Source of the DNA: Torpedo marmorata
Taxonomy: Eukaryota
NCBI GenBank assembly: GCA_977017645.1
Contig: CDRNVU010000224.1
Coordinates: forward strand, 992,001 to 1,056,000
Direction of reading: 5' to 3'
Length of the DNA stretch: 64,000 bases
This document shows, one piece after another, positions 5,961 to 59,936 of this stretch. The position numbers were made by a program, and so were the translations under genes. A model generated the notes under the pieces. The model saw only the letters and a list, made by a program, of their open reading frames with translations. It made no database searches and had not been told where the DNA came from. Within the stretch, counting starts at the first letter, position 1. The number at the start of each line of letters is the position of its first letter.

Positions 5961-5962
5961 CC
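4491..5962 (+). repeat. Second homogeneous 34-bp dimer array, ~43 units
   Basis: Same 34-mer as 1-1127. It ends in the identical GATCCAAAAAAGAGTCTGTCCCTGG junction (CCAAAAAA at 5961 versus 1126). Confidence 0.96.
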
Positions 5963-11283: not shown

Positions 11284-11333
11284 CCGGATTCATTCCGTGT
11301 ACGGACTCACCCCAGTTGCGCACGCACTCCGGA
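11284..11333 (-). repeat. ~50-bp inverted satellite segment (about 3 monomers); first of ~39 copies
   Basis: The reverse complement of CCGGATTCATTCCGTGTACGGACTCACCCCAGTTGCGCACGCACTCCGG is CCGGAGTGCGTGCGCAACTGGGGTGAGTCCGTACACGGAATGAATCCGG. This matches forward satellite such as 21496-21545 (AGTGCGTGCGAACCTGGGGTGAGTCTGTACCCGGAATGACTC). Confidence 0.88.
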
Positions 11334-14300
11334 GTGAGCGCATTCCCGGAGTGAGTCGAAACCTTGAATGATTCTGAACCCGGAATGTGTGTGTTTCTGG
11401 AGTGAGTCCGTACCCGGAGTGAGTCTGATCCCAGAGTGGTGCTGATACCGGAGTGTGTCTGTTCCCGAAGTGAATCTGTTTCCGGAGTGTGTTTGTTCAC
11501 GGAGTGACTCTGTTCCCGGAGTGAGTCTGATCCCGGAGTCAAGTAGTTCCCGGAGTGAAACAGATCCCGGAGTGAATCTGTTTCCTGGTGTGAGTCAGAT
11601 CCCAGAGCGAATCTGTTTGCTGGAGTGAGTTTGATCCCGGAGTGTCTGCTCCTGGATTGAGTCTGTTCCCGGAGGGAGTGCGAACCTGGAGTGAGTCTGT
11701 ACACGGAATGACTCTGGTCCCGTAGTGATTCTGATCTCGGAGTGTGTCAGATCCCGGAGTGAGTCTGATCACAGAGCGGTGCTAATACCGGAGTGTGTCT
11801 GTTCCCGTGTAAATATTTTTCAGGAGTGTGTCTGTTCTCAGTGTGACTCTGAACACTGAATGAATCTGATCCCGGAGTCAAGTATTTCCCGGAGTGAAAC
11901 AGATCCCGGATTCATTCCGTGTCCGGACTCACCCCAGTTGCGCACGCACTCCAGAGTGAGCGCATTCCCGGAGTGAGTCGAACCCTTGAATGATTCTGAA
12001 CCCGGATTGTGTGTGTTTCTGGAGTGAGTCCGTACCCGGAGTGAGTCTGATCCGAGAGTGATTCTAATCCCGGAGTGAACCTGATGCCAAAAGTGGTACT
12101 GATCCCGGAGTGAGTCCGTTCGCCGAGTGAATACGTTTCCCAAGTGATCCTGGTCCCGGAGTGTGTCTGAGGCATGAGTGAAATATTTTCCGGAGTGAAA
12201 CAGATCCCGGAGTGAATCTGTTTCCTGGTGTGAGTCAGTTCTCAGAGCGAGACAGTTTGCTGGAGTGAGACTGATCCCGGAGTGTCTGTTCCTGGATTGA
12301 GTCTGTTCCCGGCGTGCGTGCGAACCTGGGGTGTGTCTGTACCCAGTATGAATCTTGTCCAGGAGTGATTCTGATCCCGGAGTGTGTCTGATCCCAGAGT
12401 GGTTCTGAATCCGGAGTGTGTCTGTTCCCCGAGTGAATCTGTTTCCGGAGTGTGTCTGTTCTCGGAGTGACTCTGTTCCCGGAGTGCGTCTGATCCCGGA
12501 GTCAAGGAGTTCCCAGAGTGAAACGGATCCCGGAGTGAATCTGTTTCCTTGTGTGTCAAATCCCACAGCGAGTCTGTTTGCTGGAAAGCGTCTGTTCCCG
12601 GACTGTGTTTGATAATGGATTGAGTCTGTTCCCGGTGTGTGTCTGATCGCAGAGTGGTACTGATCCTGGAATGAGTCCGTAACCGGAATGAATCTGATCC
12701 CGGAGTGAATCTGAACCCAACGTGGTACTGTTCCCGGAGTGAGCCTGAACACGGATTGAGACTTTTTCTAAAGTGTGTTCGTACTGAGAGTGAGTCTGTT
12801 CCCGAGTTCAGTCGGGCGACAGAGTGAGTCTTTTCCGGAGTGAGCGTGATCCTGGATTGAGTCCCAAACCGGAATGAGGCTGATCCCAGAGTGCTACTGA
12901 TCCCGGAGTGTGTCTGTTCCCCAAGTGAATCTGTTCCGGAGAGATTCTTTTATCGGAGTGAATCTGTTCCCGGAATGAGTCTGATGCAGGAGTGAAATAG
13001 TTCCCGGAGTGAAACAGATCCCGGAGTGAATCTGTTTCCTGGTGTGAGTCAGATCCCAGAGCGAGCATGTTTTCTGGAGTGAGTCTGATCCCGGTGTGAG
13101 TCTGTTCCTGGATTGTCTGTTACCGGAGTTTGTGAGATCCTGGAGTGTGAACCTGGAGTGAGCGCATTCCCGGATTGAGTCTGAGGCATGAGTGAAATAG
13201 TTCCCGGAGTGAAAAAGACCCCGGAGTGAATCTATTTCCTGGTGTGAGTCAGATCCCAGAGCGAGTCTGTTTGCTGGAGTGAGTCTGATCCCGGAGTGTC
13301 TGTTCCTGGATTGAGTCTGTTCCCGGAGGGAGTGCGAACCTGGAGTGAGTCTGTACACGGAATGACTCTGGTCCCGAAGTGATTCTGATCCCGGAGTGAG
13401 TCAGATCCCTGAGTGAGTCTGATCACAGAGCGGTGCTAATACCGGAGTGTGTCTGTTCCCGAGTAAATATTTTTCAGGAGTGTGTCTGTTCTCAGAGTGA
13501 TTCTGAACCCTGAATGAGTCTGATCCCGGAGTAAAGTATTTCCCGGAGTGAAACAGATCCCGGATTCAATCCGTGTACAGACTCACCCCAGTTGCGCATC
13601 CACTCCAGAGTGAGCGCATTCCCGGAGTGAGTCGAACCCTTGAATGATTCTGAACCCGGATTGTGTGTGTTTCTGGAGTGAGTCCGTACCCGGAGTGAGT
13701 CTGATCCGAGAGTGATTCTAATCCCGGTGTGAACCTGATGCGAAAGTGGTACTGATCCCGAAGTGAGTCCGTTCGCCGAGTGAATACGTTTCCCGAGTGA
13801 GCCTGGTCCCGGAGTGTGTCAGAGGCATGAGTGAAATATTTTCCGGAGTGAAACAGATCCCGGAGTGAATCTGTTTCCTGGTGTGAGTCAGATCCCAGAG
13901 CGAGTCTGTTTGCTGGAGTGAGTTTGATCCCGGAGTGTCTGTTCCTGGATTGAGTCTGTTCCCGGAGGGAGTGCGAACCTGGAGTGAGTCTGTACACGGA
14001 ATGACTCTGGTCCCGAAGTGATTCTGATCCCGGAGTGTGTCAGATCCCGGAGTGAGTCTGATCACAGAGCGGTGCTAATACCGGAGTGTGTCTGTTCCCG
14101 AGTAAATATTTTTCAGGAGTGTGTCTGTTCTCAGTGTGACTCTGAACCCTGAATGAGTCTGATCCCGGAGTCAAGTATTTCCCGGAGTGAAACTGATCCC
14201 GGATTCATTCCGTGTACGGACTCACCCCAGTTGCGCACGCACTCCAGAGTGAGCGCATTCCCGGAGTGAGTCGAACCCTTGAATTATTCTGAACCCGGAT

Positions 14301-17300
14301 TGTGTGTGTTTCTGGAGTGAGTTCGTTCCCGGAGTGAGTCTGAGGCATGAGTGAAATAGTTCTCGGTGTGAAACAGATCCCGGAGTGAATCTGTTCCCTG
14401 GTGTGGGTCAGATCCCAGAGCGCGTCTGTTTGCTGGTGTGAGTCTGATCCCGGAGTGTCTGTTGCTGGAGGGAGTGCGAACCTGGAGTGAGTCTGTCCCC
14501 GGAATAACTGGTCCCGGAGTGATTCTGATCCCGGAGTGAGTGTGATTCTGATCCCGGAGTGAGTCTGATCCCAGAGTGCTGATACCGGAGTGTGTCCGTT
14601 CCCCGAGTAAATATTTTCCAGGAGTCTCTCTGTTCTCAGAGTGACTCTGAACCCTGAGTGAGTCTGATCCCGGAGTCAAGTAGTCCCCGGAGTGAAGCCG
14701 ATCCCTGCGTGAATCTGTTTCCTGGTCTGAGTCAGATCCCAGAGTGAGTCAATTTTCTGGAGTGAGTTTGATACCCGAGTAAGTTTTTTTTCCTGGATTG
14801 ATTCTGTTCCCGCAATCAGTCCGACGCCAGAGTGGGTCTGCTCCCGGAGTGAGCGTGATCCTGGAGTGAGTCCGTAACCGGTATGAATCTGATCCCGGAG
14901 TGATTCTGATCTCAGAGTGAGTCTGATCCCAGAGTGCTACTGATCCCTGAGTGAGACAGTTCCCCAAGTGAATATTTTTCCGGAGTGTGTCTGATCTCGG
15001 AGTGACTCTGTTCCCGGAGTGAGTCTGATCCCGCAGTCAAGTATTTCCCGGAGTGAAACAGATCCCGGATTCATTCCGTGTACGGACTCACCCCAGTTGC
15101 GCACGCACTCCGGAGTGAGCGCATTCCCGGAGTGAGACGAAACCTTGAATGATTCTGAACCCGGATTGTGTGTGTTTCTGGAGTGAGTCCGTACCCGGAG
15201 TGAGTCTGATCCCAGAGTGGTGCTGATACCGGAGTGTGTCTGTTCCCGGAGTGAATCTGTTCCGGAGTGTGTCTGTTCACGGAGTGACTCTGTTCCCGGA
15301 GTGAGTCTGATGCCGGAGTCAAATATTTCCCGGAGTGAAACAGATCCCGAAGTGAACCTGTTTCCTGGTGTGAGTCAGATCCCAGAGCGAGTATGTTTGC
15401 TGGAGTGAGTCTGATCCCGGTGTGAGTCTTTTCCTGGATTGTCTGTTGCCGGAGATTGTGTGATGCTGGGTTGAGTCTGGTCCTGGAGTGTGTGTGAACC
15501 TGGAGTGAGTGCATTCCCGGAGCGTGTCTATATCTTGAGTGATTCTGAACCAGGATTGTATCTGTTACTGGAGTGAGTCGGTACCCGGAGTGAGGCTGAT
15601 CCCAGAGTGAGTCTTTTCCCGGAGTGATAATGTAGCCAGAGTGAGTCTGTTCCCGGAGTTAGTGTGTCCCTGGATTAAGTCTGTTGCCGGAGCGAGTGTG
15701 ATCCTGGATTGATTCTGTTCCTGGAATGAGTGTGGACCAGGAGTGAGCGCATTACCGGAGTGAGTCTATCCTTGAATGATTCTGAAACGGATTGTGTGTG
15801 TTTCTGGAGTGGGTCCGTACCCAGAGTGAGTCTGACCCCAGAGTGACTCTAATCCCGGAGTGATTCTGATGCCAAAGTTTTATGATCCCGGAGTGAGTCC
15901 GTTCGCCGAGTAAATCCGTTTCCGGAGTGAGTCTGTTCCCGCAGTGAGTCTGAGGCATGAGTGAAATATTTTCCGGAGTGAAACAGATCCCGGAGTGAAT
16001 CTATTTCCTGGCGTGAGTCAGATCCCAGAGCGAGTCTGTTTGCTGGAGTGAGTCTGATCCCGGAGTGTCTGTTCCTGGATTGAGTCTGTTCCCGGAGGGA
16101 GTGCGAACCTGGAGTGAGTCTGTACACGGAATGACTCTGGTCCCGAAGTGATTCTGATCCCGGAGTGTGTCAGATCCCGGAGTGAGTCTGATCACAGAGC
16201 GGTGCTAATTCCGGAGTGTGTCTGTTCCCGAGTAAATATTTTTCAGGAGTGTGTCTGTTCTCAGAGTGATTCTGAACCCTTAATGAGTCTGATCCCGGAG
16301 TCAAGTATTTCCCGGAGTGAAACAGATCCCGGATTCATTCCGTGTACGGACTCACCCCAGTTGCGCACGCACTCCAGACTGAGCGCATTCCCGGAGTGAG
16401 TCGAACCCTTGAATGATTCTGAACCCGGATTGTGTGTGTTTCTAGAGTGAGTCCGTTCCCGGAGTGAGTCTGAGGCATGAGTGAAATAGTTCTCGGTGTG
16501 AAACAGATCCCGGAGTGAATCTGTTCCCTGGTGTGGGTCAGATCCCAGAGCGCGTCTGTTTGCTGGTGTGAGTGTGATCCCGGAGTGTCTGTTGCTGGAG
16601 GGAGTGCGAACCTGGAGTGAGTCTGTCCCCGGAATAACTGATTCCGGAGTGATTCTGATCCCGGAGCGAGTGTGATTCTGATCCCGGAGTGAGTCTGATC
16701 CCAGAGTGCTGATACCGGAGTGTGTCCGTTCCCCGAGTAAATATTTTCCAGGAGTCTCTCTGTTCTCAGAGTGACTCTGAACCCTGAGTGAGTCTGATCC
16801 CGGAGTCAAGTAGTTCCCGGAGTGAAACCGATCCCTGCGTGAATCTGTTTCCTGGTCTGAGTCAGATCCCAGAGTGAGTCAATTTTCTGGAGTGAGTTTG
16901 ATACCCGAGTAAGTTTTTTTTCCTGGATTGAGTCTGTTCCCGCATTCAGTCCGACGCCAGAGTGGGTCTGCTCCCGGAGTGAGCGTGATCCTGGAGTGAG
17001 TCCGTAACCGGTATGAATCTGATCCCGGAGTGATTCTGATCTCAGAGTGAGTCTGATCCCAGAGTGCTACTGATCCCGGAGTGAGACAGTTCCCCAAGTG
17101 AATATTTTTCCGGAGTGTGTCTGATCTCGGAGTGACTCTGTTCCCGGAGTGAGTCTGATCCCGCAGTCAAGTATTTCCCGGAGTGAAACAGATCCCGGAT
17201 TCATTCCGTGTACGGACTCACCCCAGTTGCGCACGCAATCCGGAGTGAGCGCATTCCCGGAGTGAGTCGAAACCTTGAATGATTCTGAACCCGGATTGTG

Positions 17301-20300
17301 TGTGTATCTGGAGTGAGTCCGTACCCGGAGTGAGTCTGATCCCAGAGTGGTGCTAATACCGGAGTGTGCCTGTTCCCGGAGTGAATCTGTTTCCGGAGTG
17401 TGTCTGTTCACGGAGTGACTCTGTTCCCGGAGTGAGTCTGATCCCGGAGTCAAGTAGTTCCCGGAGTGAAACAGATCCAGGAGTGAATCTGTTTCCTGGT
17501 GTGAGTCAGATCCCAGAGCGAGTCTGTTTGCTGGAGTGCGTTTGATCCCGGAGTGTCTGTTCCTGGATTGAGTCTGTTCCCGGAGGGAGTGCGAACCTGG
17601 AGTGAGTCTGTACACGGAATAACTCTGGTCCCGAAGTGATTCTGATCCCGGAGTGTGTCAGATCCCGGAGTGAGTCTGATCACAGAGCGGTGCTAATACC
17701 GGAGTGTGTCTGTTCCCGTGTAAATATTTTTCAGGAGTGTGGCTGTTCTCAGTGTGACTCTGAACCCTGAATGAGTCTGATCCCGGAGTCAAGTATTTCC
17801 CGGAGTGAAACAGATCCCGGATTCATTCCATGTACGGACTCACCCCAGTTGCGCACGCACTCCGGAGTGAGCGCATTCCCGGAGTGAGGCGAACCCTTGA
17901 ATGATTCTGAACCCGGATTGTGTGTGTTTCTGGAGTGAGTCCGTACCCGGAGTGAGTCTGATCCCAGAGTGATTCTAATCCCGGAGTGAGCCTGATGCCA
18001 AAGTGGTACTGATCCCGGAGTGAGTCCGTTCGCCGAGTGAATACGTTTCCGGAGTGAGTCTGGTCCCGGAGTGTGTCTGAGGCATGAGTGAAATATTTTA
18101 CGGAGTGAAACAGATCCCGGAGTGAATCTGTTTCCTGGAGTGCGTCAGTTCCCAGAGCGAGACTGTTTGCTGGAGTGAGACTGATCCCGGAGTGTCTGTT
18201 CCTAGATTGAGTCTGTTCCCGGAGTGCGTGCGAACCTGGGTTGAGTCTGAACCCAGAATGAATCTGGTCGCGGAGTGATTCTGATCCCGGAGTGTGTCTG
18301 ATCCCAGAGAGGTTCTGAATCCGGAGTGTGTCAGTTCCCCGAGTGAATCTGTTTCCGGAGTGTGTCTTTTCTCGGAGTGACTCTGTTCCCGGAGTTTGTC
18401 TGATCCGGGAGTCAAGGAGTTCCCAGAGTGAAACGGATCCCGGAGTGAATCTGTTTCCTTGTGTGACAAATCCCACAGCGAGTCTGTTTGCTGGAACGAG
18501 TCTGTTCCCGGACTGTGTGTGATAATGGATTGAGTCTGTTCCCGGTGTGTGTCTGATCGCAGAGTGGTACTGATCCTGGAGTGAGTCTGTAACCGGAATG
18601 AATCTGATCCCGGAGTGAATCTGAACCCAACGTGGTACTGTTCCCGGAGTGAGCCTGAACAAGGATTGAGACTTTTTCTAAAGTGTGTTCGTACTGAGAG
18701 TGAGTCTGTTCCCGAATTCAGTCGAGCGACAGAGTGAGTTTTTTCCGGAGTGAGCGTGATCCTGGAGTGAGTCCCAAACCGGAATGAAGCTGATCCCAGA
18801 GTGCTACTGATCCCGGAGTGAGTCTGTTCCCCAAGTGAATCTGTTCCGGAGAGATTCTTTTATCGGAGTGAATCTGTTCCCGGAATGAGTCTGATGCAGG
18901 AGTGAAATAGTTCCCGGAGTGAAACAGATCCCGGAGTGAATCTGTTTCCTGGTGTGAGTCAGATCCCAGAGCGAGCATGTTTTCTGGAGTGAGTCTGATC
19001 CCGGTGTGAGTCTGTTCCTGGATTGTCTGTTGCCGGAGTTTGTGTGATCCTGGAGTGTGAACCTGGAGTGAGCGCATTCCCGGATTGAGTCTGAGGCATA
19101 AGTGAAATAGTTCCCGGAGTGAAAAAGACCCCGGAGTGAATTTATTTCCTGGTGTGAGTCAGATCCCAGAGCGAGTCTGTTTGCTGGAGTGAGTCTGATC
19201 CCGGAGTGAGTCTGATCCCGGAGTCAAGTAGTTCCCGGAGTGAAACAGATCCCGGAGTGAATCTGTTTCCTGGTTTTAGTCAGATCCCAGAGCGAGTCTG
19301 TTTGCTGGAGTGAGTCTGATCCCGGAGTGTCTGTTCCTGGATTGAGTCTGTTCCCGGAGGGAGTGCGAACCTGGAGTGAGTCTGTACACGGAATGACTCT
19401 GGTCCCGAAGTGATTTTGATCCCGGGGTGAGTCAGATCCCGGAGTGAGTCTGATCACAGAGCGGTGCTAATACCGGAGTGTGTCTGTTCCCGAGTAAATA
19501 TTTTTCAGGAGTGTGTCTGTTCTCAGAGTGATTCTGAACCCTGAATGAGTCTGATCCAGGAGTCAAGTATTTCCCGGAGTGAAACAGATCCCGGATTCAT
19601 TCCGTGTACGGACTCACCCCAGTTGCGCACGCACTCCAGACTGAGCGCATTCCCGGAGTGAGTCGAACCCTTGAATGATTCTGAACCCGGATTGTGTGTG
19701 TTTCTGGAGTGAGTCCGTTCCCGGAGTGAGTCTGAGGCATGAGTGAAATAGTTCTCGGTGTGAAACAGATCCCGGAGTGAATCTGTTCCCTGGTGTGGGT
19801 CAGATCCCAGAGCGCGTCTGTTTTCTGGTGTGAGTCTGATCCCGGAGTGTCTGTTGCTGGAGGGAGTGCGAACCTGGAGTGAGTCTGTCCCCGGAATAAC
19901 TCTGGTCCCGGAGTGGTTCTGATCCCGGAGTGAGTGTGATTCTGATCCCGGAGTGAGTCTGATACCAGAGTGCTGATACCGGAGTGTGTCCGTTCCCCGA
20001 GTAAATATTTTCCAGGAGTCTCTCTGTTCTCAGAGTGACTCTGAACCCTGAGTGAGTCTGATCCCGGAGTCAAGTAGTTCCCGGAGTGAAACCGATCCCT
20101 GCGTGAATCTGTTTCCTGGTCTGAGTCAGATCCCAGAGTGAGTCAATATTCTGGAGTGAGTTTGATACCCGAGTAAGTTTTTTTTCCTGGATTGAGTCTG
20201 TTCCCGCATTCAGTCCGAAGCCAGAGTGGGTCTGCTCCCGGAGTGAGCGTGATCCTGGAGTGAGTCCGTAACCGGTATGAATCTGATCCCGGAGTGATTC

Positions 20301-26300: not shown

Positions 26301-28721
26301 GAGTGAATCTGTTACCGGAGTGTGTCTGTTCTCGGAGTGACTCTGTTCCCGGAGTGAGTCTGATCCCGGAGTCAAGTAGTTCCCGGAGTGAAACAGATCC
26401 CGGAGTGAATATGTTTCCTGGTGTGAGTCAGATCCCAGAGCGAGTCTGTTTGCTGGAGTGAGTCCGATCCCGGAGTGTCTGTTCCTGGATTGAGTCTGTT
26501 CCCGGAGGGAGTGCGAACCTGGAGTGAGTCTGTACACGGAATGACTCTGGTCCCGAAGTGATTCTGATCAAGGGGTGAGTCTGTTCCCCAAGTGAATCTG
26601 TTCCGGAGAGATTCTTTTATCGGAGTGAATCTGTTCCCGGAATGAGTCTGATGCAGGAGTGAAATAGTTCCCGGAGTGAAACAGATCCCGGAGTGAATCT
26701 GTTTCCTGGTGTGAGTCAGATCCCAGAGCGAGCATGTTTTCTGGAGTGAGTCTGATCCCGGTGTGAGTCTGTTCCTGGATTGTCTGTTGCCGGAGTTTGT
26801 GTGATCCTGGAGTGTGAACATGGAGTGATCGCATTCCCGGATTGAGTCTGAGGCATAAGTGAAATAGTTCCCGGAGTGAAAAAGACCCCGGAGTGAATCT
26901 ATTTCCTGGTGTGAGTCAGATCCCAGAGCGAGTCTGTTTGCTGGAGTGAGTCTGATCCCGGAGTGTCTGTTCCTGGATTGAGTCTGTTCCCGGAGGGAGT
27001 GCGAACCTGGAGTGAGTCTGTACACGGAATGACTCTGGTCCCGAAGTGATTCTGATCCCGGAGTGAGTCAGAACCCTGAGTGAGTCTGATCACAGAGCGG
27101 TGCTAATACCGGAGTGTGTCTGTTCCCGAGTAAATATTTTTCAGGAGTGTGTCTGTTCTCAGAGTGATTCTGAACCCTGAATGAGTCTGATCCCGGAGTC
27201 AAGTATTTCCCGGAGTGAAACAGATCCCGGATTCAATCCGTGTACAGACTCACCCCAGTTGCGCATCCACTCCAGACTGAGCGCATTCCCGGAGTGAGTC
27301 GAACCCTTGAATGATTCTGAACCCGGACTGTGTGTGTTTCTAGAGTGAGTCCGTTCCCGGAGTGAGTCTGAGGCATGAGTGAAATAGTTCTCGGTGTGAA
27401 ACAGATCCCGGAGTGAATCTGTTCCCTGGTGTGGGTCAGATCCCAGAGCGCGTCTGTTTGCTGGTGTGAGTCTGATCCCGGAGTGTCTGTTGCTGGAGGG
27501 AGTGCAAACCTGGAGTGAGTCTGTCCCCGGAATAAATCTGGTCCCGGAGTGATTCTGATCCCGGAGTGAGTGTGAATCTGATCCCGGAGTGAGTCTGATC
27601 CCAGAGTGCTGATACCGGAGTGTGTCCGTTCCCCGAGTAAATATTTTCCAGGAGTCTCTCTGTTCTCAGAGTGACTCTGAACCCTGAGTGAGTCTGATCC
27701 CGGAGTTAAGTAGTTCCCGGAGTGAAACCGATCCCTGCGTGAATCTGTTTCCTGGTCTGAGTCAGATCCCAGAGTGAGTCAATTTTCTGGAGTGAGTTTG
27801 ATACCCGAGTAAGTTTTTTTCCTGGATTGAGTCTGTTCCCGCATTCAGTCCGACGCCAGAGTGGGTCTGCTCCCGGAGTGAGCGGGATCCTGGAGTGAGT
27901 CCGTAACCGGTATGAATCTGATCCCGGAGTGATTCTGATCTCAGAGTGAGTCTGATCCCAGAGTGCTACTGATCCCGGAGTGAGACAGTTCCCCAAGTGA
28001 ATATTTTTCCGGAGTGTGTCTGATCTCGGAGTGACTCTGTTCCCGGAGTGAGTCTGATCCCGCAGTCAAGTATTTCCCGGAGTGAAACAGATCCCGGATT
28101 CATTCCGTGTACGGACTCACCACAGTTGCGCACGCACTCCGGAGTGAGCGCATTCCCGGAGTGAGTCGAAACCTTGAATGATTCTGAACCCGGATTGTGT
28201 GTGTTTCTGGAGTGAGTCCGTACCCGGAGTGAGGCTGATCCCAGAGTGGTGCTGATACCGGAGTGTGTCTGTTCCCGGAGTGAATATGTTTCCGGAGTGT
28301 GTCTGTTCACGGAGTGACTCTGTTCCCGGAGTGAGTCTGATCCCGGAGTCAAGTAGTTCCCGGAGGGAAACAGATCCCGGAGTGAATCTGTTTCCTGGTG
28401 TGAGTCAGATCCCAGAGCGAGTCAGTTTGCTGGAGTGAGTCTGATCCCGGGGTGTCTGTTCCTGGATTGAGTCTGTTCCCGGAGGGAGTGCGAACCTGGA
28501 GTGAGTCTGTACACGGAATGACTCTGGTCCCGAAGTGATTCTGATCCCGGAGTGTGTCAGATCCCTGAGTGAGTCTGATCAGAGAGCGGTGCTAATACCG
28601 GAGTGTGTCTGTTCCCGTGCAAATATTTTTCAGGTGTGTGTCTGTTCTCAGTGTGACTCTGAACCCTGAATGAGTCTGATCCCGGAGTCAAGTATTTCCC
28701 GGAGTGAAACAGATCCCGGAT

Positions 28722-43800: not shown

Positions 43801-46800
43801 GGAGTGAATCTGTTTCCTGGTGTGAGTCAGATCCCAGAGCGAGTCTGTTTGCTGGAGTGAGTCTGATCCCGGAGTGTCTGTTCCTGGATTGATTCTGTTC
43901 CCGGAGGGAGTGCGAACCTGGAGTGAGTCTGTACACGGAATTACTCTGGTCCCGAAGTGATTCTGATCCCGGAGTGTGTCAGATCCCGGAGTGAGTCTGA
44001 TCACAGAGCGGTGCTTATACCGGAGTGTGTCTGTACACGTGTAAATATTTTTCAGGAGTGTGTCTGTTCTCAGTGTGACTCTGAACCCTGAATGAGTCTG
44101 ATCCCGGAGTCAAGTATTTCCCGGAGTGAAACAGATCCCGGATTCATTCCGTGTACGGACTCACCCCAGTTGCGCACGCACTCCAGAGTGAGCGCATTCC
44201 CGGAGTGAGTCGAACCCTTGAATGATTCTGAACCCGGATTGTGTGTGTTTCTGGAGTGAGTCCGTACCAGGAGTGAGTCTGATCCGAGAGTGATTCTAAT
44301 CCCGGAGTGAACCTGATGCCAAAGTGGTACTGATCCCGGAGTGAGTCCGTTCGCCGAGTGAATACGTTTCCCGAGTGAGCCTGGTCCCGGAGTGTGTCTG
44401 AGGCATGAGTGAAATATTTTCCGGAGTGAAACAGATCCCGGAGTGAATCTGTTTCCTGGTGTGAGTCAGTTCTCAGAGCGAGACTGTTTGCTGGAGTGAG
44501 ACTGATCCCGGAGTAGCTGTTCCTGGATTGAGTCTGTTCCCGGAGTGCGTGCGAACCTGGGGTGTGTCTGTACCCAGAATGAATCTTGTCCCGGAGTGAT
44601 TCTGATCCCGGAGTGTGTCTGATCCCAGAGAGGTTCTGAATCCGGAGTGTGTCTGTTCCCCGAGTGAATCTGTTTCCGGAGTGTGTCTGTTCTCGGAGTG
44701 ACTCTGTTCCCGGAGTGAGTCTGATCCCGGAGTCAAGGAGTTCCCAGAGTGAAACGGATCCCGGAGTGAATCTGTTTCCTTGTGTGTCAAATCCCACAGC
44801 GAGTCTGTTTGCTGGAACGAGTCTGTTCCCGGACTGTGTGTGATAATGGATTGAGTCTGTTCCCGGTGTGTGTCTGATCGCAGAGTGGTACTGATCCTGG
44901 AGTGAGTCCGTAACCGGAATGAATCTGATCCCGGAGTGAATCTGAACCCAACGTGGTACTGTTCCCGGAGTGAGCCTGAACACGGATTGAGACTTTTTCT
45001 AAAGTGTGTTCGTTCTGAGAGTTAGTCTGTTCCCGAATTCAGTCGGGCGACAGAGTGAGTCTTTTCCGGAGTGAGCGTGATCCTGGATTGAGTCCCAAAC
45101 CGGAATGAGGCTGATCCCAGAGTGCTACTGATCCCGGAGTGTGTCTGTTCCCCAAGTGAATCTGTTCCGGAGAGATCCTTTTATCGGAGTGAATCTGTTC
45201 CCGGAATGAGTCTGATGCAGGAGTGAAATAGTTCCCGGAGTGAAACAGATCCCGGAGTGAATCTTTTTCCTGGTGTGAGTCAGATCCCAGAGCGAGCATG
45301 TTTTCTGGAGTGAGTCTGATCCCGGTGTGAGTCTGCTCCTGGATTGTCTGTCGCCGGAGTTTGTGTGATCCCGGAGTGTGAACCTGGAGTGAGCGCATTC
45401 ACGGATTGAGTCTGAGGCATAAGTGAAATAGTTCCCGGAGTGAAAAAGACCCCGGAGTGAATCTGTTTCCTGGTGTGTCAGATCCCAGAGCGAGTCTGTT
45501 TGCTGGAGTGAGTCTGATCGCGGAGTGAGTCTGTTCCTGGATTGTCTGTTACCGGAGTTTGTGAGATCCCGGAGTGTGAACCTGGAGTGAGCGCATTCAC
45601 GGATTGAGTCTGAGGCATAAGTGAAATAGTTCCCGGAGTGAAAAAGACCCCGGAGTGAATCTGTTTCCTGGTGTGTCAGATCCCAGAGCGAGTCTGTTTG
45701 CCGGAATGAATCTGATCGCGGAGTGGATCTGAACCCAACGTGGTACTGTTCCCGGAGTGAGCCTGAACAAGGATTGAAACTTTTTCTAAAGTGTGTTCGT
45801 ACTGAGAGTGAGTCTGTTCCCGAATTCAGTCGGACGACAGAGTGAGTCTTTTCCGGAGTGAGCGTGATCCTGGAGTGAGTCCCAAACCGGAATGAGCCTG
45901 ATCACAGAGTGCTACTGATCCCGGAGTGAGTCTGTTCCCCACGTGAATCTGTTCCGGAGAGATTCTTTTATCGGAGTGAATCTGTTCCCGGAATGAGTCT
46001 GATGCAGGAGTGAAATAGTTCCCGGAGTGAAACAGATCCCGGAGTGAATCTGTTTCCTGGTGTGAGTAAGATCCCAGAGCGAGCATGTTTTCTGGAGTGA
46101 GTCTGATCCCGGTGTGAGTCTGTTACTGGATTGTCTGTTGCCGGAGTTTGTGTGATCCCGGAGTGTGAACCTGGAGTGAGCGCATTCCCGGATTGAGTCT
46201 GAGGCATGAGTGAAATAGTTCCCGGAGTGAAAAAGACCCCGGAGTGAATCTATTTCCTGGTGTGAGTCAGATCCCAGAGCGAGCATGTTTTCTGGAGTAA
46301 GTCTGATCCCGGAGTGTCTGTTCCTGGATTGAGTCTGTTCCCGGAGGGAGTGCGAACCTGGAGTGAGTCTGTACACGGAATGACTCTGGTCCCGAAGTGA
46401 TTCTGATCCCGGAGTGAGTCAGATCCCGGAGTGAGTCTGATCACAGAGCGGTGCTAATACCGGAGTGTGTCTGTTCCCGAGTAAATATTTTTCAGAAGTG
46501 TGTCTGTTCTCAGAGTGACTTTGAACCCTGAATGAGTCTGATTCCGGAGTCAAGTATTTCCCGGAGTGAAACAGATCCCGGATTCATTCCGTGTACGGAC
46601 TCACCCCAGTTGCGCACGCACTCCAGACTGAGCGCATTCCCGGAGTGAGTCGAACCCTTGAATGATTCTGAACCCGGATTGTGTGTGTTTCTGGAGTGAG
46701 TCCGTTCCCGGAGTGAGTCTGAGGCATGAGTGAAATAGTTCTCGGTGTGAAACAGATCCCGGAGTGAATCTGTTCCCTGGTGTGGGTCAGATCCCAGAGC

Positions 46801-49800
46801 GCGTCTGTTTGCTGGTGTGAGTCTGATCCCGGAGTGTCTTTTGCTGGAGGGAGTGCGAACCTGGAGTGAGTCTGTCCCCGGAATAACTGGTCCCGGAGTG
46901 ATTCTGATCCCGGAGTGAGTGTGATTCTGATCCCGGAGTGAGTCTGATCCCAGAGTGCTGATACCGGAGTGTGTCTGTTCCCCTAGTAAATATTTTCCAG
47001 GAGTCTCTCTGTTCTCAGAGTGACTCTGAACCCTGAGTGAGTCTGATCCCGCAGTCAAGTAGTTCCCGGAGTGAAACCGATCCCTGCGTGAATCTGTTTC
47101 CTGGTCTGAGTCAGATCCCAGAGTGAGTCAATTTTCTGGAGTGAGTTTGATTCCCGAGTAAGTTTTTTTACCTGGATTGAGTCTGTTCCCGCATTCAGTC
47201 CGAAGCCAGAGTGGGTCTGCTCCCGGAGTGAGCGTGATCCTGGAGTGAGTCCGTAACCGGTATGAATCTGATCCCGGAGTGATTCTGATCTCAGAGTGAG
47301 TCTGATCCCAGAGTGCTACTGATCCCGGAGTGAGACAGTTCCCCAAGTGAATATTTTTCCGGAGTGTGTCTGATCTCGGAGTGACTCTGTTCCCGGAGTG
47401 AGTCTCATCCCGCAGTCAAGTATTTCCCGGAGTGAAACAGAACCCGGATTCATTCCGTGTACGGACTCACCCCAGTTGCGCACGCACTCCGGAGTGAGCG
47501 CATTCCCGGAGTGAGTCGAACCCTTGCATGATTCTGAACCCGGATTGTGTGTGATTCTGGAGTGAGCCCGTACCCGGAGTGAGTCTGATCCGAGAGTGAT
47601 TCTAATCCCGGAGTGAACCTGATGCCAAAGTGGTACTGATCCCGCAGTGAGTCCGTTCGCCGAGTGAATACGTTTCCCAAGTGAGCCTGGTCCCGGAGTG
47701 TGTCTGAGGCATGAGTGAAATATTTTCCGGAGTGAAACAGATCCCGGAGTGAATCTGGTTCCTGGTGTGAGTCAGTTCTCAGAGCGAGACTGTTTGCTGG
47801 AGTGAGACTGATCCCGGAGTGTCTGTTCCTGGATTGAGTCTGTTCCCGGAGTGCGTGCGAACCTGGGGTGTGTCTGTACCCAGAATGAATCTTGTCCCGG
47901 AGTGATTCTGATCCCGGAGTGTGTCTGATCCCAGAGAGGTTCTGAATCCGGAGTGTGTCTGTTCCCCGAGTGAATCTGTTTCCGGAGTGTGTCTGTTCTC
48001 GGAGTGACTCTGTTCCAGGAGTGAGTCTGATCCCGGAGTCAAGGAGTTCCCAGAGTGAAACGGATCCCGGAGTGAATCTGTTTCCTTGTGTGTCAAATCC
48101 CACAGCGAGTCTGTTTGCTGGAAAGTGTCTGTTCCCGGACTGTGTGTGATAATGGATTGAGTCTGTTCCCGGTGTGTGTTTGATCGCAGAGTGGTACTGA
48201 TCCTGGAGTGAGTCCGTAACCGGAATGAATCTGATCCCGGAGTGAATCTGAACCCAACGTGGTACTGTTCCCGGAGTGAGCCTGAACAAGGATTGAGACT
48301 TTTTCTAAAGTGTGTTCGTACTGAGAGTGAGTCTGTTCCCGAATTCAGTCGGACGACAGAGTGAGTCTTTTCCGGAGTGAGCGTGATCCTGGAGTGAGTC
48401 CCAAACCGGAATGAGCCTGATCCCAGAGTGCTACTGATCCCGGAGTGAGTCTGTTCCCCAAGTGAATCTGTTCCGGAGAGATTCTTTTATCGGAGTGAAT
48501 CTGTTCTCGGAATGAGTCTGATGCAGGAGTGAAATAGTTCCCGGAGTGAAACAGATCCCGGAGTGAATCTGTTTCCTGGTGTGAGTCAGATCCCAGAGCG
48601 AGCATGTTTTCTGGAGTGAGTCTGATCCCGGTGTGAGTCTGTTCTTGGATTGTCTGTTACCGGAGTTTGTGAGATCCCGGAGTGTGAACCTGGAGTGAGC
48701 GCATTCCCGGATTGAGTCTGAGGCATGAGTGAAATAGTTCCCGGAGTGAAAAAGACCCCGGAGTGAATCTATTTCCTGGTGTAAGTCAGATCCAAGAGCG
48801 AGTCTGTTTGCTGGAGTGAGTCTGATCCCGGAGTGTCTGTTCCTGGATTGAGTCTGTTCCCGGAGGGAGTGCGAACCTGGAGTGAGTCTGTACACGGAAT
48901 GACTCTGGTCCCGAAGTGATTCTGATCCCGGAGTGAGTCAGATCCCGGAGTGAGTCTGATCACAGAGCGGTGCTAATACCGGAGTGTGTCTGTTCCCGAG
49001 TAAATATTTTTCAGGAGTGTGTCTGTTCTCAGAGTGATTCTGAACCCTGAATGAGTCTGATCCCGGAGTCAAGTATTTCCCGGAGTGAAACAGATCCCGG
49101 ATTCAATCCGTGTACAGACTCACCCCAGTTGCGCATCCACTCCAGACTGAGCGCATTCCCGGAGTGAGTCGAACCCTTGAATGATTCTGAACCCGGACTG
49201 TGTGTGTTTCTAGAGTGAGTCCGTTCCCGGAGTGAGTCTGAGGCATGAGTGAAATAGTTCTCGGTGTGAAACAGATCCCGGAGTGAATCTGTTCCCTGGT
49301 GTGGGTCAGATCCCAGAGCGCGTCTGTTTGCTGGTGTGAGTCTGATCCCGGAGTGTCTGTTGCTGGAGGGAGTGCAAACCTGGAGTGAGTCTGTCCCCGG
49401 AATAACTCTGGTCCCGGAGTGATTCTGTTCCCGGAGTGAGTGTGAATCTGATCCCGGAGTGAGTCTGATCCCAGAGTGCTGATACCGGAGTGTGTCCGTT
49501 CCCCGAGTAAATATTTTCCAGGAGTCTCTCTGTTCTCAGAGTGACTCTGAACCCTGAGTGAGTCTGATCCCGGAGTTAAGTAGTTCCCGGAGTGAAACCG
49601 ATCCCTGCGTGAATCTGTTTCCTGGTCTGAGTCAGATCCCAGAGTGAGTCAATTTTCTGGAGTGAGTTTGATACCCGAGTAAGTTTTTTTTCCTGGATTG
49701 AGTCTGTTACCGCATTCAGTCCGACGCCAGAGTGGGTCTGCTCCCGGAGTGAGCGGGATCCTGGAGTGAGTCCGTAACCGGTATGAATCTGATCCCGGAG

Positions 49801-52800
49801 TGATTCTGATCTCAGAGTGAGTCTGATCCCAGAGTGCTACTGATCCCGGAGTGAGACAGTTCCCCAAGTGAATATTTTTCCGGAGTGTGTCTGATCTCGG
49901 AGTGACTCTGTTCCCGGAGTGAGTCTGATCCCGCAGTCAAGTATTTCCCGGAGTGAAACAGATCCCGGATTCATTCCGTGTACGGACTCACCACAGTTGC
50001 GCACGCACTCCGGAGTGAGCGCATTCCCGGAGTGAGTCGAAACCTTGAATGATTCTGAACCCGGATTGTGTGTGTTTCTGGAGTGAGTCCGTACCCGGAG
50101 TGAGGCTGATCCCAGAGTGGTGCTGATACCGGAGTGTGTCTGTTCCCGGAGTGAATATGTTTCCGGAGTGTGTCTGTTCACGGAGTGACTCTGTTCCCGG
50201 AGTGAGTCTGATCCCGGAGTCAAGTAGTTCCCGGAGGGAAACAGATCCCGGAGTGAATCTGTTTCCTGGTGTGAGTCAGATCCCAGAGCGAGTCAGTTTG
50301 CTGGAGTGAGTCTGATCCCGGGGTGTCTGTTCCTGGATTGAGTCTGTTCCCGGAGGGAGTGCGAACCTGGAGTGAGTCTGTACACGGAATGACTCTGGTC
50401 CCGAAGTGATTCTGATCCCGGAGTGTGTCAGATCCCTGAGTGAGTCTGATCAGAGAGCGGTGCTAATACCGGAGTGTGTCTGTTCCCGTGCAAATATTTT
50501 TCAGGTGTGTGTCTGTTCTCAGTGTGACTCTGAACCCTGAATGAGTCTGATCCCGGAGTCAAGTATTTCCCGGAGTGAAACAGATCCCGGATTCATTCCG
50601 TGTACGGACTCACCCCAGTTGCGCACGCAGTCCAGAGGGAGCGCATTCCCGGAGTGAGTCGAACCCTTGAATGATTCTGAACCCGGATTGTGTGTGATTC
50701 TGGATTGAGTCCGTACCCGGAGTGAGTCTGATCCGAGAGTGATTCTAATCCCGGAGTCAACCTGATGCCAAAGTGGTACTGATCCCGGAGTGAGTCCGTT
50801 CGCCGAGTGAATACGTTTCCCGAGTGAGCCTGGTCCAGGAGTGTGTCTGAGGCATGAGTGAAATATTTTCCGGATTGAAACAGATCCCGGAGTGAATCTG
50901 TTTCCTGGTGTGAGTCCGTTCTCAGAGCGAGACTGTTTGCTGGAGTGAGACTGATCCCGGAGTGTCTGTTCCTGGATTGAGTCTGTTCCCGGAGTGCGTG
51001 CGAACCTGGGGTGTGTCTGTACCCAGAATGAATCTTGTCCCGGAGTGATTCTGATCCCGGAGTGTGTCTGATCCCAGAGTGGTTCTGAATCCGGAGTGTG
51101 TCTGTTCCCCGAGTGAATCTGTTTCCGGAGTGTGTCTGTTCTCGGAGTGACTCTGTTCCCGGAGTGAGTCTGATCCCGGAGTCAAGGAGTTCCCAGAGTG
51201 AAACGGATCCCGGAGTGAATCTGTTTCCTCGTGTGTCAAATCCCACAGTGAGTCTGTTTGCTGGAACGAGTCTGTTCCCGGACTGTGTGTGATAATGGAT
51301 TGAGTCTGTTCCCGGTGTGTGTCTGATCGCAGAGTGGTACTGATCCTGGAGTGAGTCCGTAACCGGAATGAATCTGATCCCGGAGTGAATCTGAACCCAA
51401 CGTGGTACTGTTCCCGGAGTGAGCCTGAACAAGGATTGAGACTTTTTCTAAAGTGTGTTCGTACTGAGAGTGAGTCTGTTCCCGAGTTCAGTTGGACGCC
51501 AGAGTGAGTCTTTTCCGGAGTGAGCGTGATCCTGGAGTGAGTCCCAAACCGGAATGAGCCTGATCACAGAGTGCTACTGATCCCGGAGTGAGTCTGTTCC
51601 CCAAGTGAATCTGTTCCGGAGAGATTCTTTTATCGGAGTGAATCTGTTCCCGGAATGAGTCTGATGCAGGAGTGAAATAGTTCCCAGAGTGAATCAGATC
51701 CCGGAGTGAATCTGTTTCCTGGTGTGAGTCAGATCCCAGAGCGAGCATGTTTCTGGAGTGAGTCTGATCCCGGTGTGAGTCTGTTCCTGGATTGTCTGTT
51801 ACCGGAGATTGTGAGATCCCGGAGTGTGAACCTGGAGTGAGCGCATTCCCGGATTGAGTCTGAGGCATGAGTGAAATAGTTCCCGGAGTGAAAAAGACCC
51901 CGGAGTGAATCTGTTTCCTGGTGTGAGTCAGATCCCAGAGCGAGTCTGTTTGCTGGAGTGAGTCTGATCCCGGAGTGTCTATTCCTGGATTGAGTCTGTT
52001 CCCGGAGGGAGTGCGAACCTGGAGTGAGTCTGTACAGGGAATGAGTCTGGTCCCGAAGTGATTCTGATCCCGGAGTGAGTCAGATCCCTGAGTGAGTCTG
52101 ATCACAGAGCGGTGCTAATACCGGAGTGTGTCTGTTCCCGAGTAAATATTTTTCAGGAGTGTGTCTGTTCTCAGAGTGATTCTGAACCCTGAATGAGTCT
52201 GATCCCGGAGTCAAGTATTTCCCGGAGTGAAACAGATCCCGGATTCATTCCGTGTACGGACTCACCCCAGTTGCGCACGCACTCCAGAGTGAGCGCATTC
52301 CCGGAGTGAGTCGAACCCTTTAATGATTCTGAACCCGGATTGTGTATGTTTCTGGAGTGAGTCCGTTCCCGGAGTGAGTCTGAGGCATGAGTGAAATAGT
52401 TCTCGGTGTGAAACAGATCCCGGAGTGAATCTGTTCCCTGGTGTGGGTCAGATCCCAGAGCGCGTCTGTTTGCTGGTGTGAGTCTGATCCCGGAGTGTCT
52501 GTTGCTGGAGGGAGTGCGAACCTGGAGTGAGTCTGTCCCCGGAATAACTCTGGTCCCGGAGTGATTCTGATCCCGGAGTGAGTGTGATTCTGATCCCGGA
52601 GTGAGTCTGATACCAGAGTGCTGATACCGGAGTGTGTCCGTTCCCCGAGTAAATATTTTCCAGGAGTCTCTCTGTTCTCAGAGTGACTCTGAACCCTGAG
52701 TGAGTCTGATCCCGGAGTTAAGTAATTCCCGGAGTGAAACCGATCCCTGCGTGAATCTGTTTCCTGGTCTGAGTCAGATCCCAGAGTGAGTCAATTTTCT

Positions 52801-55800
52801 GGAGTGAGTTTGATACCCGAGTAAGTTTTTTTTCCTGGATTGAGTCTGTTACCGCATTCAATCCGACGCCAGAGTGGGTCTGCTCCCGGAGTGAGCGTGA
52901 TCCTGGAGTGAGTCCGTAACCGGTATGAATCTGATCCCGGAGTGATTCTGATCTCAGAGTGAGTCTGATCCCAGAGTGCTACTGATCCCGGAGTGAGACA
53001 GTTCCCCAAGTGAATATTTTTCCGGAGTGTGTCTGATCTCGGAGTGACTCTGTTCCCGGAGTGAGTCTGATCCCGCAGTCAAGTATTTCCCGGAGTGAAA
53101 CAGATCCCGGATTCATTCCGTGTACGGACTCACCCCAGTTGCGCACGCACTCCGGAGTGAGCGCATTCCCGGAGTGAGTCGAAACCTTGAATGATTCTGA
53201 ACCCGGATTGTGTGTGTTTCTGGAGTGAGTCCGTACCCGGAGTGAGTCTGATCACAGAGTGGTGCTGATACCGGAGTGTGTCTGTTCCCGGAGTGAATCT
53301 GTTTCCGGTGTGTGTCTGTTCACGGAGTGACTCTGTTCCCGGAGTGATTCTGATCCCGGAGTCAAGTAGTTCCCGGAGTGAAACAGATCCCGGAGTGAAT
53401 CTGTTTCCTGGTGTGAGTCAGATCCCAGAGCGAGTCTGTTTGCTGGAGTGAGTCTGATCCCGGAGTGTCTGTTCCTGGATTGATTCTGTTCCCGGAGGGA
53501 GTGCGAACCTGGAGTGAGTCTGTACACGGAATTACTCTGGTCCCGAAGTGATTCTGATCCCGGAGTGTGTCAGATCCCGGAGTGAGTCTGATCACAGAGC
53601 GGTGCTTATACCGGAGTGTGTCTGTACACGTGTAAATATTTTTCAGGAGTGTGTCTGTTCTCAGTGTGACTCTGAACCCTGAATGAGTCTGATCCCGGAG
53701 TCAAGTATTTCCCGGAGTGAAACAGATCCCGGATTCATTCCGTGTACGGACTCACCCCAGTTGCGCACGCACTCCAGAGTGAGCGCATTCCCGGAGTGAG
53801 TCGAACCCTTGAATGATTCTGAACCCGGATTGTGTGTGTTTCTGGAGTGAGTCCGTACCAGGAGTGAGTCTGATCCGAGAGTGATTCTAATCCCGGAGTG
53901 AACCTGATGCCAAAGTGGTACTGATCCCGGAGTGAGTCCGTTCGCCGAGTGAATACGTTTCCCGAGTGAGCCTGGTCCCGGAGTGTGTCTGAGGCATGAG
54001 TGAAATATTTTCCGGAGTGAAACAGATCCCGGAGTGAATCTGTTTCCTGGTGTGAGTCAGTTCTCAGAGCGAGACTGTTTGCTGGAGTGAGACTGATCCC
54101 GGAGTAGCTGTTCCTGGATTGAGTCTGTTCCCGGAGTGCGTGCGAACCTGGGGTGTGTCTGTACCCAGAATGAATCTTGTCCCGGAGTGATTCTGATCCC
54201 GGAGTGTGTCTGATCCCAGAGAGGTTCTGAATCCGGAGTGTGTCTGTTCCCCGAGTGAATCTGTTTCCGGAGTGTGTCTGTTCACGGAGTGACTCTGTTC
54301 CCGGAGTGAGTCTGATCCCGGAGTCAAGGAGTTCCCAGAGTGAAACGGATCCCGGAGTGAATCTGTTTCCTTGTGTGTCAAATCCCACAGCGAGTCTGTT
54401 TGCTGGAAAGCGTCTGTTCCCGGACTGTGTGTGATAATGGATTGAGTCTGTTCCCGGTGTGTGACTGATCGCAGAGTGGTACTGATCCTGGAGTGAGTCC
54501 GTAACCGGAATGAATCTGATCCCGGAGTGAATCTGAACCCAACGTGGTACTGTTCCCGGAGTGAGCCTGAACAAGGATTGAGACTTTTTCTAAAGTGTGT
54601 TCGTACTGAGAGTTAGTCTGTTCCCGAATTCAGTCGGGCGACAGAGTGAGTCTTTTCCGGAGTGAGCGTGATCCTGGAGTGAGTCCCAAACCGGAATGAG
54701 CCTGATCACAGAGTGCCACTGATCCCGGAGTGAGTCTGTTCCCCAAGTGAATCTGTTCCGGAGAGATTCTTTTATCGGAGTGAATCTGTTCCCGGAATGA
54801 GTCTGATGCAGGAGTGAAATAGTTCCCGGAGTGAAACAGATCCCGGAGTGAATCTGTTTCCTGGTGTGAGTCAGATCCCAGAGCGAGCATGTTTTCTGGA
54901 GTGAGTCTGATCCCGGTGTGAGTCTGTTCCTGGATTGTCTGTTACCGGAGTTTGTGAGATCCCGGAGTGTGAACCTGGAGTGAGCGCATTCCCGGATTGA
55001 GTGTGAGGCATAAGTGAAATAGTTCCCGGAGTGAAAAAGACCCCGGAGTGAATCTATTTCCTGGTGTGAGTCAGATCCCAGAGCGAGTCTGTTTGCTGGA
55101 GTGAGTCTGATCCCGGAGTGTCTGTTCCTGGATTGAGTCTGTCCCCGGAGGGAGTGCGAACCTGGAGTGAGTCTGTACACGGAATGACTCTGGTCCCGAA
55201 GTGATTCTGATCCCGGAGTGTGTCAGATCCCGGAGTGAGTCTGATCACAAAGCGGTGTTAATACCGGAGTGTGTCTGTTCCCGAGTAAATATTTTTCAGG
55301 AGTGTGTCTGTTCTCAGAGTGATTCTGAACCCTGAATGAGTCTGATCCCGGAGTTAAGTAGTTCCCGGAGTGAAACAGATCCCGGAGTGTCTGTTCCTGG
55401 ATTGAGTCTGTTCCCGGAGTGTGTGCGAACCTGGGGTGTGTCTGTACCCAAAATGAATCTTGTCCCGGAGTGATTCTGATCCCGGAGTGTGTCTGATCCC
55501 AGAGTGGTTCTGAATCCGGAGTGTGTCTGTTCCCCGAGTGAATCTGTTACCGGAGTGTGTCTGTTCTCGGAGTGACTCTGTTCCCGGAGTGAGTCTGATC
55601 CCGGAGTCAAGTAGTTCCCGGAGTGAAACAGATCCCGGAGTGAATATGTTTCCTGGTGTGAGTCAGATCCCAGAGCGAGTCTGTTTGCTGGAGTGAGTCC
55701 GATCCCGGAGTGTCTGTTCCTGGATTGAGTCTGTTCCCGGAGGGAGTGCGAACCTGGAGTGAGTCTGTACACGGAATGACTCTGGTCCCGAAGTGATTCT

Positions 55801-59935: not shown

Positions 59936-59936
59936 T

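What the first reader, a model, noticed from the sequence alone, without database searches (positions are those of the whole stretch)
11284..53790. A fixed ~50-bp micro-inversion of the satellite punctuates every HOR sub-block and creates dyad symmetry
Seen: the apparently foreign motif TTCATTCCGTGTACGGACTCACCCCAGTTGCGCACGCACTCC is the reverse complement of about three ordinary monomers, with both breakpoints in palindromic CCGG cores. I count ~39 copies, three per canonical HOR, and none in the left domain or right fringe. The right junction forms the 12-bp palindrome CACTCCGGAGTG in one sub-block type (CACTCCAGAGTG in others), within a longer imperfect TGCGC...GCGCA dyad. There is also an internal TCCGT-GT-ACGGA hairpin, and the segment can pair with neighbouring monomers. 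Inference: one template-switch event preceded sub-block triplication. The fold-back sites may have driven amplification of this HOR, may supply non-B DNA (proposed for centromere specification), or may yield hairpin RNA from satellite transcripts.
Basis: partly seen in the sequence, partly recalled or inferred. Interest (0 to 1): 0.75.

Follow-up and report, generated by a model that had tools for sequence, protein, structure and literature searches.

The report
Backward 45-bp patch in satellite repeat
A 45-letter piece of a repetitive DNA array sits back-to-front 39 times; it is likely the scar of one old repair error that was later copied along as a passenger, and its template and un-inverted relatives survive in the same array.

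Summary
There are exactly 39 copies of a 45-bp reverse-complement satellite segment (11288-53777), the only reverse-oriented DNA in a 59.9-kb array of 17-bp monomers, three per canonical 3143-bp HOR. Its template is one specific three-monomer tract (39/45 identical; shuffles at best 27/45). It is not an in-place flip. The CCGG cores are 45, not 51, bp apart, so only the right junction fits a CCGG-to-CCGG join. The flipped-back arrangement was not found. Relic un-inverted cycles (15317, 20712) show that the insert replaced forward monomers. The best reading is one templated inverted insertion with deletion, copied about 350 bp from the break, then spread within a ~190-bp module. The three blocks (868/622/1653 bp) are not triplicates, and only 3 of 10 underlying cycles per HOR carry the insert. 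Local fold-back rises modestly (-13.2 vs -8.3 kcal/mol per 100 nt). Against a function: the perfect palindrome survives in 14 of 39 copies, the insert is no better conserved than the rest, HOR-variant junctions are not enriched (5 of 22; 3.5 expected), and the HOR's longest perfect dyad lies elsewhere. Inverted subunits in satellites are known. Likely a neutral passenger and a good lineage marker.

The parts
5..59930 (+). 17-bp-monomer satellite array, all one orientation except the inserts
   Evidence: TRF period 17, 3504 copies; orientation scan
10530..56465 (+). Homogeneous HOR domain, 3143-bp unit, copies mostly 98-99% to consensus, with variant HORs
   Evidence: Viterbi alignment to HOR consensus
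11288..53777 (-). Span of the 39 inverted 45-bp inserts. Starts: 11288, 11910, 13564, 14203, 15069, 16333, 17199, 17821, 19595, 20463, 23008, 23876, 24498, 27231, 28098, 28720, 30372, 31240, 31862, 33515, 34382, 35004, 36655, 37278, 38897, 39764, 40352, 42030, 42652, 43520, 44142, 46582, 47448, 49101, 49969, 50591, 52243, 53111, 53733
30372..33514 (+). One canonical HOR (868+622+1653 bp); ten K-L cycles, three with the insert
30372..30416 (-). Type A insert (CCAG right junction)
31240..31284 (-). Type B insert (CCGG right junction, perfect 12-bp palindrome; likely the ancestral junction state)
31862..31906 (-). Type C insert (CCAG); its right flank keeps the ancestral continuation
31190..31383 (+). 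Example of the ~190-bp module shared by all three sites (about 3 monomers, insert, 5-6 monomers)
   Evidence: identity profile by offset
32260..32304 (+). Template-type tract b (D1-D2-part of D3), 39/45 to the reverse complement of the insert, 354 bp downstream of the type C insert
31621..31665 (+). Template-type tract a (consensus 38/45; also at 33274-33318), 197 bp upstream of C/A inserts
20712..21563 (+). Relic un-inverted block. Insert-type K monomer and L (20712-20745) run on into forward monomers; R tract at 21141 is 362/400 identical to the C right flank; a template tract lies at 21492-21536
15317..15988 (+). Second copy of the relic un-inverted block
31509..31536 (.). Example of the native perfect 9-bp dyad (10-nt loop) across L-M1 in un-inverted cycles; 37 copies. 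The insert's left junction falls in its loop and removes it
56432..56465 (+). Right edge of the HOR domain: insert-type K and L, ending exactly where a type A insert would begin

Best explanation
The 45-bp segment is the reverse complement of a specific three-monomer tract of the same satellite, and it is likely the scar of one microhomology-mediated templated insertion with deletion that was later copied as a likely neutral passenger. Shown: the template tract, the replacement of forward monomers, the junction phases, and the shared ~190-bp module. Inferred mechanism: at a break or stalled fork, the 3' end of the right-hand fragment folded back on a CCGG core about 350 nt away on its own strand and copied about 41 nt. 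It then let go and joined the left-hand end through about 2 bp of microhomology (up to 4 bp if the template read TCCG), inside the loop of a pre-existing 9-bp dyad. This removed 153 bp or more of forward monomers (395 bp if the relic block reflects the parent molecule). Inferred history: the event dates to roughly 7-10% divergence ago. Two unequal exchanges then copied the module to three places (B split from A/C; A/C lost the palindrome by a CpG-to-CpA change), and the 3143-bp HOR amplified recently (about 1.3% divergence). The dyads are a geometric by-product of joining inverted monomers.
For: Template: 6-8 mismatches in 45 for 47 of 3305 phase-matched windows (mean 20.5), and only 3 positions differ from both template types. 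No L-like monomer is followed by the forward template. Of 42 R1-like hits outside inserts, 23 follow a D1-type monomer, 13 are D2-like hits after R4, 6 are other, and none follows a truncated D3. The relic at 20712 carries the insert-type K monomer (3 of 40 such K are insert-free) with forward monomers after it. Its 21141 tract matches the C flank 362/400 against B 332 and A 282, with a template tract 351 bp on, as in C (354 bp). Two contigs of run X1 have a forward D1-like monomer before R1 at 15112 (weak). Passenger evidence: minor alleles in inserts 16 vs 15.5 expected, mismatch rate 0.017 vs 0.013; palindrome intact in 14 of 39; junctions 5 of 22 vs 3.45 expected, P=0.25, and 2 of 18 without module-to-module exchanges; 818 of 3143 HOR 45-mers also have 3 or more internal copies. 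Templated inverted insertions with microhomology are documented in PMC8421209 (abstract, section 10 part 1) and PMC11724301 (abstract).
Against: Fold-back really is raised at the inserts: DNA MFE -13.2 (112 windows) vs -8.3 (1994 windows) per 100 nt, and dyad cover 0.39 vs 0.155 for perfect arms of 5 bp or more. Two junctions, including the right edge of the HOR domain, fall exactly at the left junction position. With the relic exit counted, the test gives 6 of 23, P=0.12. The tests have low power: one array, about 14 HOR copies, a hand-curated junction list. The link from the relic to the left junction rests on one diagnostic base, and the relic's upstream flank is recent B-block sequence (148/153). 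The 350-nt reach is far longer than the local foldbacks in PMC11724301, which use microhomologies adjacent to the break. One change unique to the insert completes the outer 5-bp stem; this could be chance or palindrome correction. The strand and enzyme are inferred only.
Confidence: 0.7

Rival explanations
1. A longer in-array inversion (or a full fold-back palindrome centred on CCGG) formed first and was then trimmed by deletion or recombination to the 45-bp remnant; it is still a passenger.
For: It gives the same end product. The right junction is centred on CCGG with 6-bp perfect arms in type B. Long perfect inverted repeats are unstable (own knowledge).
Against: It needs two or more events. 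No longer inverted intermediate exists in the window, and perfect symmetry ends 4 bp past the core.
Confidence: 0.13
2. The insert is a recombination or replication-stalling hot spot that drove the module's triplication and the amplification of this HOR.
For: All 39 inserts lie in the homogeneous domain; the right edge is at the junction position; 4 variant junctions are exchanges between insert modules; fold-back is raised.
Against: No enrichment (5 of 22, P=0.25; whole module 8 vs 8.2 expected). Module-to-module exchanges are expected from homology alone. Other HOR segments have 3-5 internal copies. The insert is several times older than the amplification. The longest perfect pairing is 8 bp with neighbours and 13-14 bp with templates 197-354 bp away.
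Confidence: 0.09
3. The insert is kept because it extrudes a cruciform or hairpin used in centromere or heterochromatin function, or gives double-stranded satellite RNA.
For: Local RNA folds over inserts have z -1.8 to -3.3 (4 of 4). The predicted insert-template RNA duplex is about -70 to -75 kcal/mol against -109 for a perfect one. Short dyads are proposed for centromere specification (PMC8997354, passages).
Against: No excess conservation. Palindrome lost in 25 of 39 copies. Variants that break the arms persist in duplicated copies. The right-junction DNA hairpin is only -5 to -6 kcal/mol, against -31 to -55 for Tribolium inversion-site hairpins (PMC13081366). One of 4 insert-free control folds also reaches z -3.2. 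The insert removes a longer perfect dyad. Nothing shows that this array is centromeric or transcribed.
Confidence: 0.06
4. Simple in-place inversion between two CCGG cores.
For: CCGG borders both ends in the present sequence.
Against: Spacing is 45 rather than 51 bp; the flipped-back adjacencies were not found; relics show other monomers at this site.
Confidence: 0.02

Closest known systems
Satellites with inverted subunits: Tribolium madens TmSat2 (~300-bp inverted segments), T. brevicornis 1061-bp satellite (~470 bp), Trichogramma brassicae 385-bp satellite (80 bp), as described in PMC13081366 (abstract and passages read; the primary papers seen only as citations)
   Same: An inverted copy of the satellite's own subunit is fixed inside a larger amplified repeat unit; inversion junctions are near-identical between copies.
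   Different: Here the inverted part is only 45 bp (3 x 45 of 3143 bp), and its partner is 85-87% identical and 197-354 bp away, so there is no long stem. There are no kilobase macro-dyads. The high identity of junctions equals that of the rest of the HOR.
MMBIR-type templated insertions and foldback inverted insertions at breaks (PMC8421209 abstract and section 10 part 1; PMC11724301 abstract); polymerase-theta templated insertions (recalled)
   Same: Short insert copied in reverse from nearby DNA, junction microhomology, loss of the original sequence at the site.
   Different: This one is an old germline event inside a satellite, multiplied 39 times. The template is about 350 bp away. It is not of the 'in-place inversion' class of PMC8421209.
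Short dyad symmetries proposed for centromere specification (Kasinathan and Henikoff 2018, seen only as summarised in PMC8997354 passages)
   Same: Dyads with arms under 10 bp in a satellite.
   Different: Centromeric status is unknown; the array is 52% GC; the best perfect dyad is native to un-inverted cycles; no conservation signal.

Membership tests
Templated inverted insertion (MMBIR/foldback/TMEJ-like) | Insert is the reverse complement of an identifiable nearby template | tested here: met
   39/45 to tract b, 354 bp away; shuffles at best 27/45
Templated inverted insertion (MMBIR/foldback/TMEJ-like) | Microhomology at both junctions | tested here: inconclusive
   Right: CCGG, 3-4 bp depending on the ancestral base; left: about 2 bp, up to 4. 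In a 17-bp satellite such matches are common, and the parent molecule is inferred
Templated inverted insertion (MMBIR/foldback/TMEJ-like) | Original sequence at the site replaced, template retained elsewhere | tested here: met
   Relics at 15317 and 20712; template tracts persist in forward orientation
Templated inverted insertion (MMBIR/foldback/TMEJ-like) | Dependence on a given repair polymerase | not testable with these tools
   Ancient event
In-place micro-inversion | Flipping back restores an existing in-phase forward arrangement | tested here: not met
   45-bp spacing; adjacencies not found
Satellite with inverted subunit in a complex repeat unit | Inverted subunit fixed in the amplified unit | tested here: met
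   3 per canonical HOR, 39 in all
Satellite with inverted subunit in a complex repeat unit | Long intra-unit stem (tens to hundreds of bp) | tested here: not met
   Longest perfect pairing 8 bp locally, 13-14 bp at long range
Non-B-DNA centromeric satellite | Enrichment in short dyads | tested here: inconclusive
   Raised near inserts against the rest of the HOR; no genome-wide background
Non-B-DNA centromeric satellite | CENP-A occupancy and non-B DNA in vivo | not testable with these tools
   No chromatin data
Hairpin/siRNA-producing satellite | Transcription and small-RNA pile-up | not testable with these tools
   No RNA run to lay; 0 Rfam matches in one HOR

The most novel reading that the evidence does not exclude
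The insert is a fragile or recombinogenic seed. It replaced a native 9-bp dyad by a strand-switched module that can pair with templates on both sides, and this started and bounded the recent amplification of a 3.1-kb HOR, whose right edge lies exactly at the insert junction. One repair scar would then have founded a new satellite domain, possibly with centromeric non-B or dsRNA function.
Probability: 0.1. Interest if true: 0.7.

Novelty: new member of a known kind. Interest (0 to 1): 0.3.

Why it matters
As a passenger it is still a clear natural record of how error-prone repair feeds satellite evolution. The insert, its template, relic un-inverted sites and the later duplications can all be read in one array, and the 45-mer is a unique probe for tracing this HOR across chromosomes and individuals. 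It also gives a caution: near-identical inversion junctions in a young HOR need not mean function, since here they are no more conserved than their neighbours. If the driver reading held, it would give a direct test of whether fold-back sites seed HOR amplification or centromere identity.

Tried and rejected
No whole genome is held, so position, copy number elsewhere and centromeric status are unknown. The run search gave 1 DNA run (share 0.06) and no RNA holder listed, which is no evidence on expression. That run holds a diverged relative of the satellite (153 contigs laid on 15000-15700, 3 at 99% or more); cover dips over the insert, which proves nothing. A fuzzy-regex scan timed out and was replaced by a Hamming scan. 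The automatic ambiguity intervals were wrong for 13601, 15639 and 21038. Its 33 jumps were curated by hand to 22: 5 duplicate pairs merged, 9 relic-internal jumps dropped, 1 hidden B-to-C exchange and 2 borders added. The 'best window per site' energies are biased by selection and were not used. The native L-M1 dyad shows no junction enrichment either (3 of 23 vs 5.2). Assembly artefact rejected: copies carry shared variants that follow larger duplications. Foldback copy of the present right flank rejected: it pairs far worse than the template tracts (-38 vs -75 kcal/mol). Rfam found 0 matches. Earlier scan notes: nothing in 3 look-ups. Literature searches returned 0 papers; the listings of searches (titles and abstract starts) showed no description of this satellite or insert. 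The library lacks most subscription papers, and no supplements were read, so an earlier description cannot be excluded.

Full report
OBSERVATION. Bases 5-59930 are a satellite of 17-bp monomers. A strand model trained on the left domain found 39 strong reverse-oriented runs in the array and one negligible one. A Hamming scan gave 39 copies at 0-5 mismatches and nothing else below 18. The insert is 45 bp (first copy 11288-11332, last 53733-53777). Alignment to a consensus shows a 3143-bp HOR between 10530 and 56465 with most segments 98-99% identical to it, and inserts at offsets 1, 869 and 1491: types A (13), B (14) and C (12).

ANATOMY. Monomer parsing shows an older cycle of about 300 bp, which I label K, L, M1-M6(8), D1, R1-R4, D2, D3. 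K-L occurs ten times per HOR. Seven times it runs on into M1; three times it is followed by the insert and then R1-R4-D2. The insert is the reverse complement of D1-D2-part of D3 from a cycle that lacks R1-R4. Of 3305 phase-matched windows, 47 lie within 6-8 mismatches (mean 20.5), and only three positions differ from both template types. The flanking CCGG cores are 45 bp apart rather than 51, so the left junction enters the template in mid-monomer. The flipped-back adjacencies were not found: no L-like monomer precedes the forward template, and of 42 R1-like hits outside inserts 23 follow a D1-type monomer, 13 are D2-like hits, 6 are other, and none follows a truncated D3. Two relic blocks (15317-15988, 20712-21563) keep the un-inverted order. 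The second has the K variant otherwise almost confined to insert sites (37 of 40 copies), then forward monomers. It also has an R tract at 21141 that matches the type C flank at 362/400 (B 332, A 282) and a template tract 351 bp further on, as in the C block (354 bp). Caveat: the relic's upstream flank is recent B-block DNA (148/153), and its link to the left junction rests on one base. Two contigs of an unnamed DNA run, which holds a diverged relative, show a forward D1-like monomer before R1 (weak support).

MECHANISM. Shown: replacement of forward monomers by a short reverse copy of a tract that still lies about 350 bp downstream. Inferred: the right-hand 3' end folded back at a CCGG core, copied about 41 nt, released, and rejoined the left-hand end through 2-4 bp of microhomology. 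The left junction lies in the loop of a native perfect 9-bp dyad across L-M1 (37 copies), a possible stall or break site. A longer inversion that was later trimmed gives the same product and cannot be excluded. Templated inverted insertions with microhomology are described in human germline variants (PMC8421209; abstract and section 10 part 1 read) and in yeast (PMC11724301; abstract read). A polymerase-theta route is recalled, not tested.

HISTORY. The insert differs from its inferred template by 3-4 of 45 bases, and the R flank from the relic by about 10%, while HOR copies differ from consensus by about 1.3%. The event is therefore several times older than the amplification. The three sites share only -50..+143; A and C share about -345..+140; the blocks are 868, 622 and 1653 bp. 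A module was copied twice; whole sub-blocks were not triplicated. B differs from A/C at -35, +43 and +73. At +43 it keeps the template's CCGG, so the perfect palindrome is likely ancestral and was lost in A/C by a CpG-type change. Threefold presence is not special: 818 of 3143 HOR 45-mers have three to five near-identical internal copies.

STRUCTURE AND FUNCTION. Against a function: the right-junction hairpin is a 4-bp plus 5-bp stem of -5 to -6 kcal/mol, and the CCGG/CCAG difference lies in its loop. The palindrome is intact in 14 of 39 copies. The internal hairpin type occurs 65 times outside inserts. The longest perfect pairing is 8 bp with neighbours and 13-14 bp with templates 197-354 bp away. 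Inserts carry 16 minor alleles against 15.5 expected. Breakpoints: 33 jumps were curated by hand to 22 independent junctions, of which 5 touch an insert against 3.45 expected (P=0.25), 2 of 18 without module-to-module exchanges, and 8 against 8.2 for the whole module. With the relic exit included the count is 6 of 23, P=0.12. Power is low, and two junctions, one being the right edge of the HOR domain, fall exactly at the left junction position, which keeps the driver reading open at about 10%. No genome and no RNA run were available, so centromeric status and expression are untested.

COMPARISON. Inverted subunits fixed in satellite units are known from Tribolium madens, T. brevicornis and Trichogramma (PMC13081366; abstract, outline and passages read). 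Those have arms of 80-470 bp, and T. madens inversion-site hairpins are predicted at -31 to -55 kcal/mol. Short dyads are proposed for centromere specification (PMC8997354 passages). One passage of 10.1101/2025.06.02.657473 invokes break-induced replication with template switching in Arabidopsis centromeres. I found no description of this satellite or insert in eight searches; the library is incomplete and no supplements were read. The organism was not determined. The flank holds reverse-transcriptase frames (Pfam RVT_1, one above and one below the curated cut-off) that from recall look like CR1- and L1-type LINEs of a vertebrate, perhaps a cartilaginous fish.

VERDICT. It is most likely a single templated inverted insertion carried as a passenger: a new member of known kinds. 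Interest 0.3.

Noticed in passing
window 59935-61470: A LINE-like element (CR1-like by recall) directly borders the satellite. Its upstream part is on the minus strand and its RT end on the plus strand, switching near 60530, like a 5'-inverted (twin-primed) insertion.
   Followed up: partly
window 61700-64000: AT-rich minus-strand LINE with long open frames; RVT_1 E=2e-28 at 63400-63999; L1-like by recall.
   Followed up: partly
window 27233-31905 and 49103-53776: A 4.7-kb stretch repeated at 21,871 bp distance with 7 mismatches (99.8%), against about 98% between adjacent HORs: a very recent large duplication or conversion.
   Followed up: partly
window 1-1130 and 4520-5960: Homogeneous 34-bp dimer arrays, each followed by the same complex block (1190 identities, 8 mismatches over 1.2 kb): a separate ~4.8-kb higher-order unit in the left domain.
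   Followed up: partly
window 31509-31536 (37 copies): The native 9-bp perfect dyad arises from clustered departures from the monomer consensus in L that complement M1; it may itself be an older template-switch correction.
   Followed up: no
window 26143-26563 and 55378-55798: The same three-junction variant HOR appears twice, 29 kb apart; it leaves L without the insert and joins two monomers upstream of a template tract.
   Followed up: partly
window 45198-46346; 37777; 39951; 19199-19265: Small in-phase variants: a ~200-bp tandem expansion, two 34-bp deletions and a 121-bp duplication.
   Followed up: no
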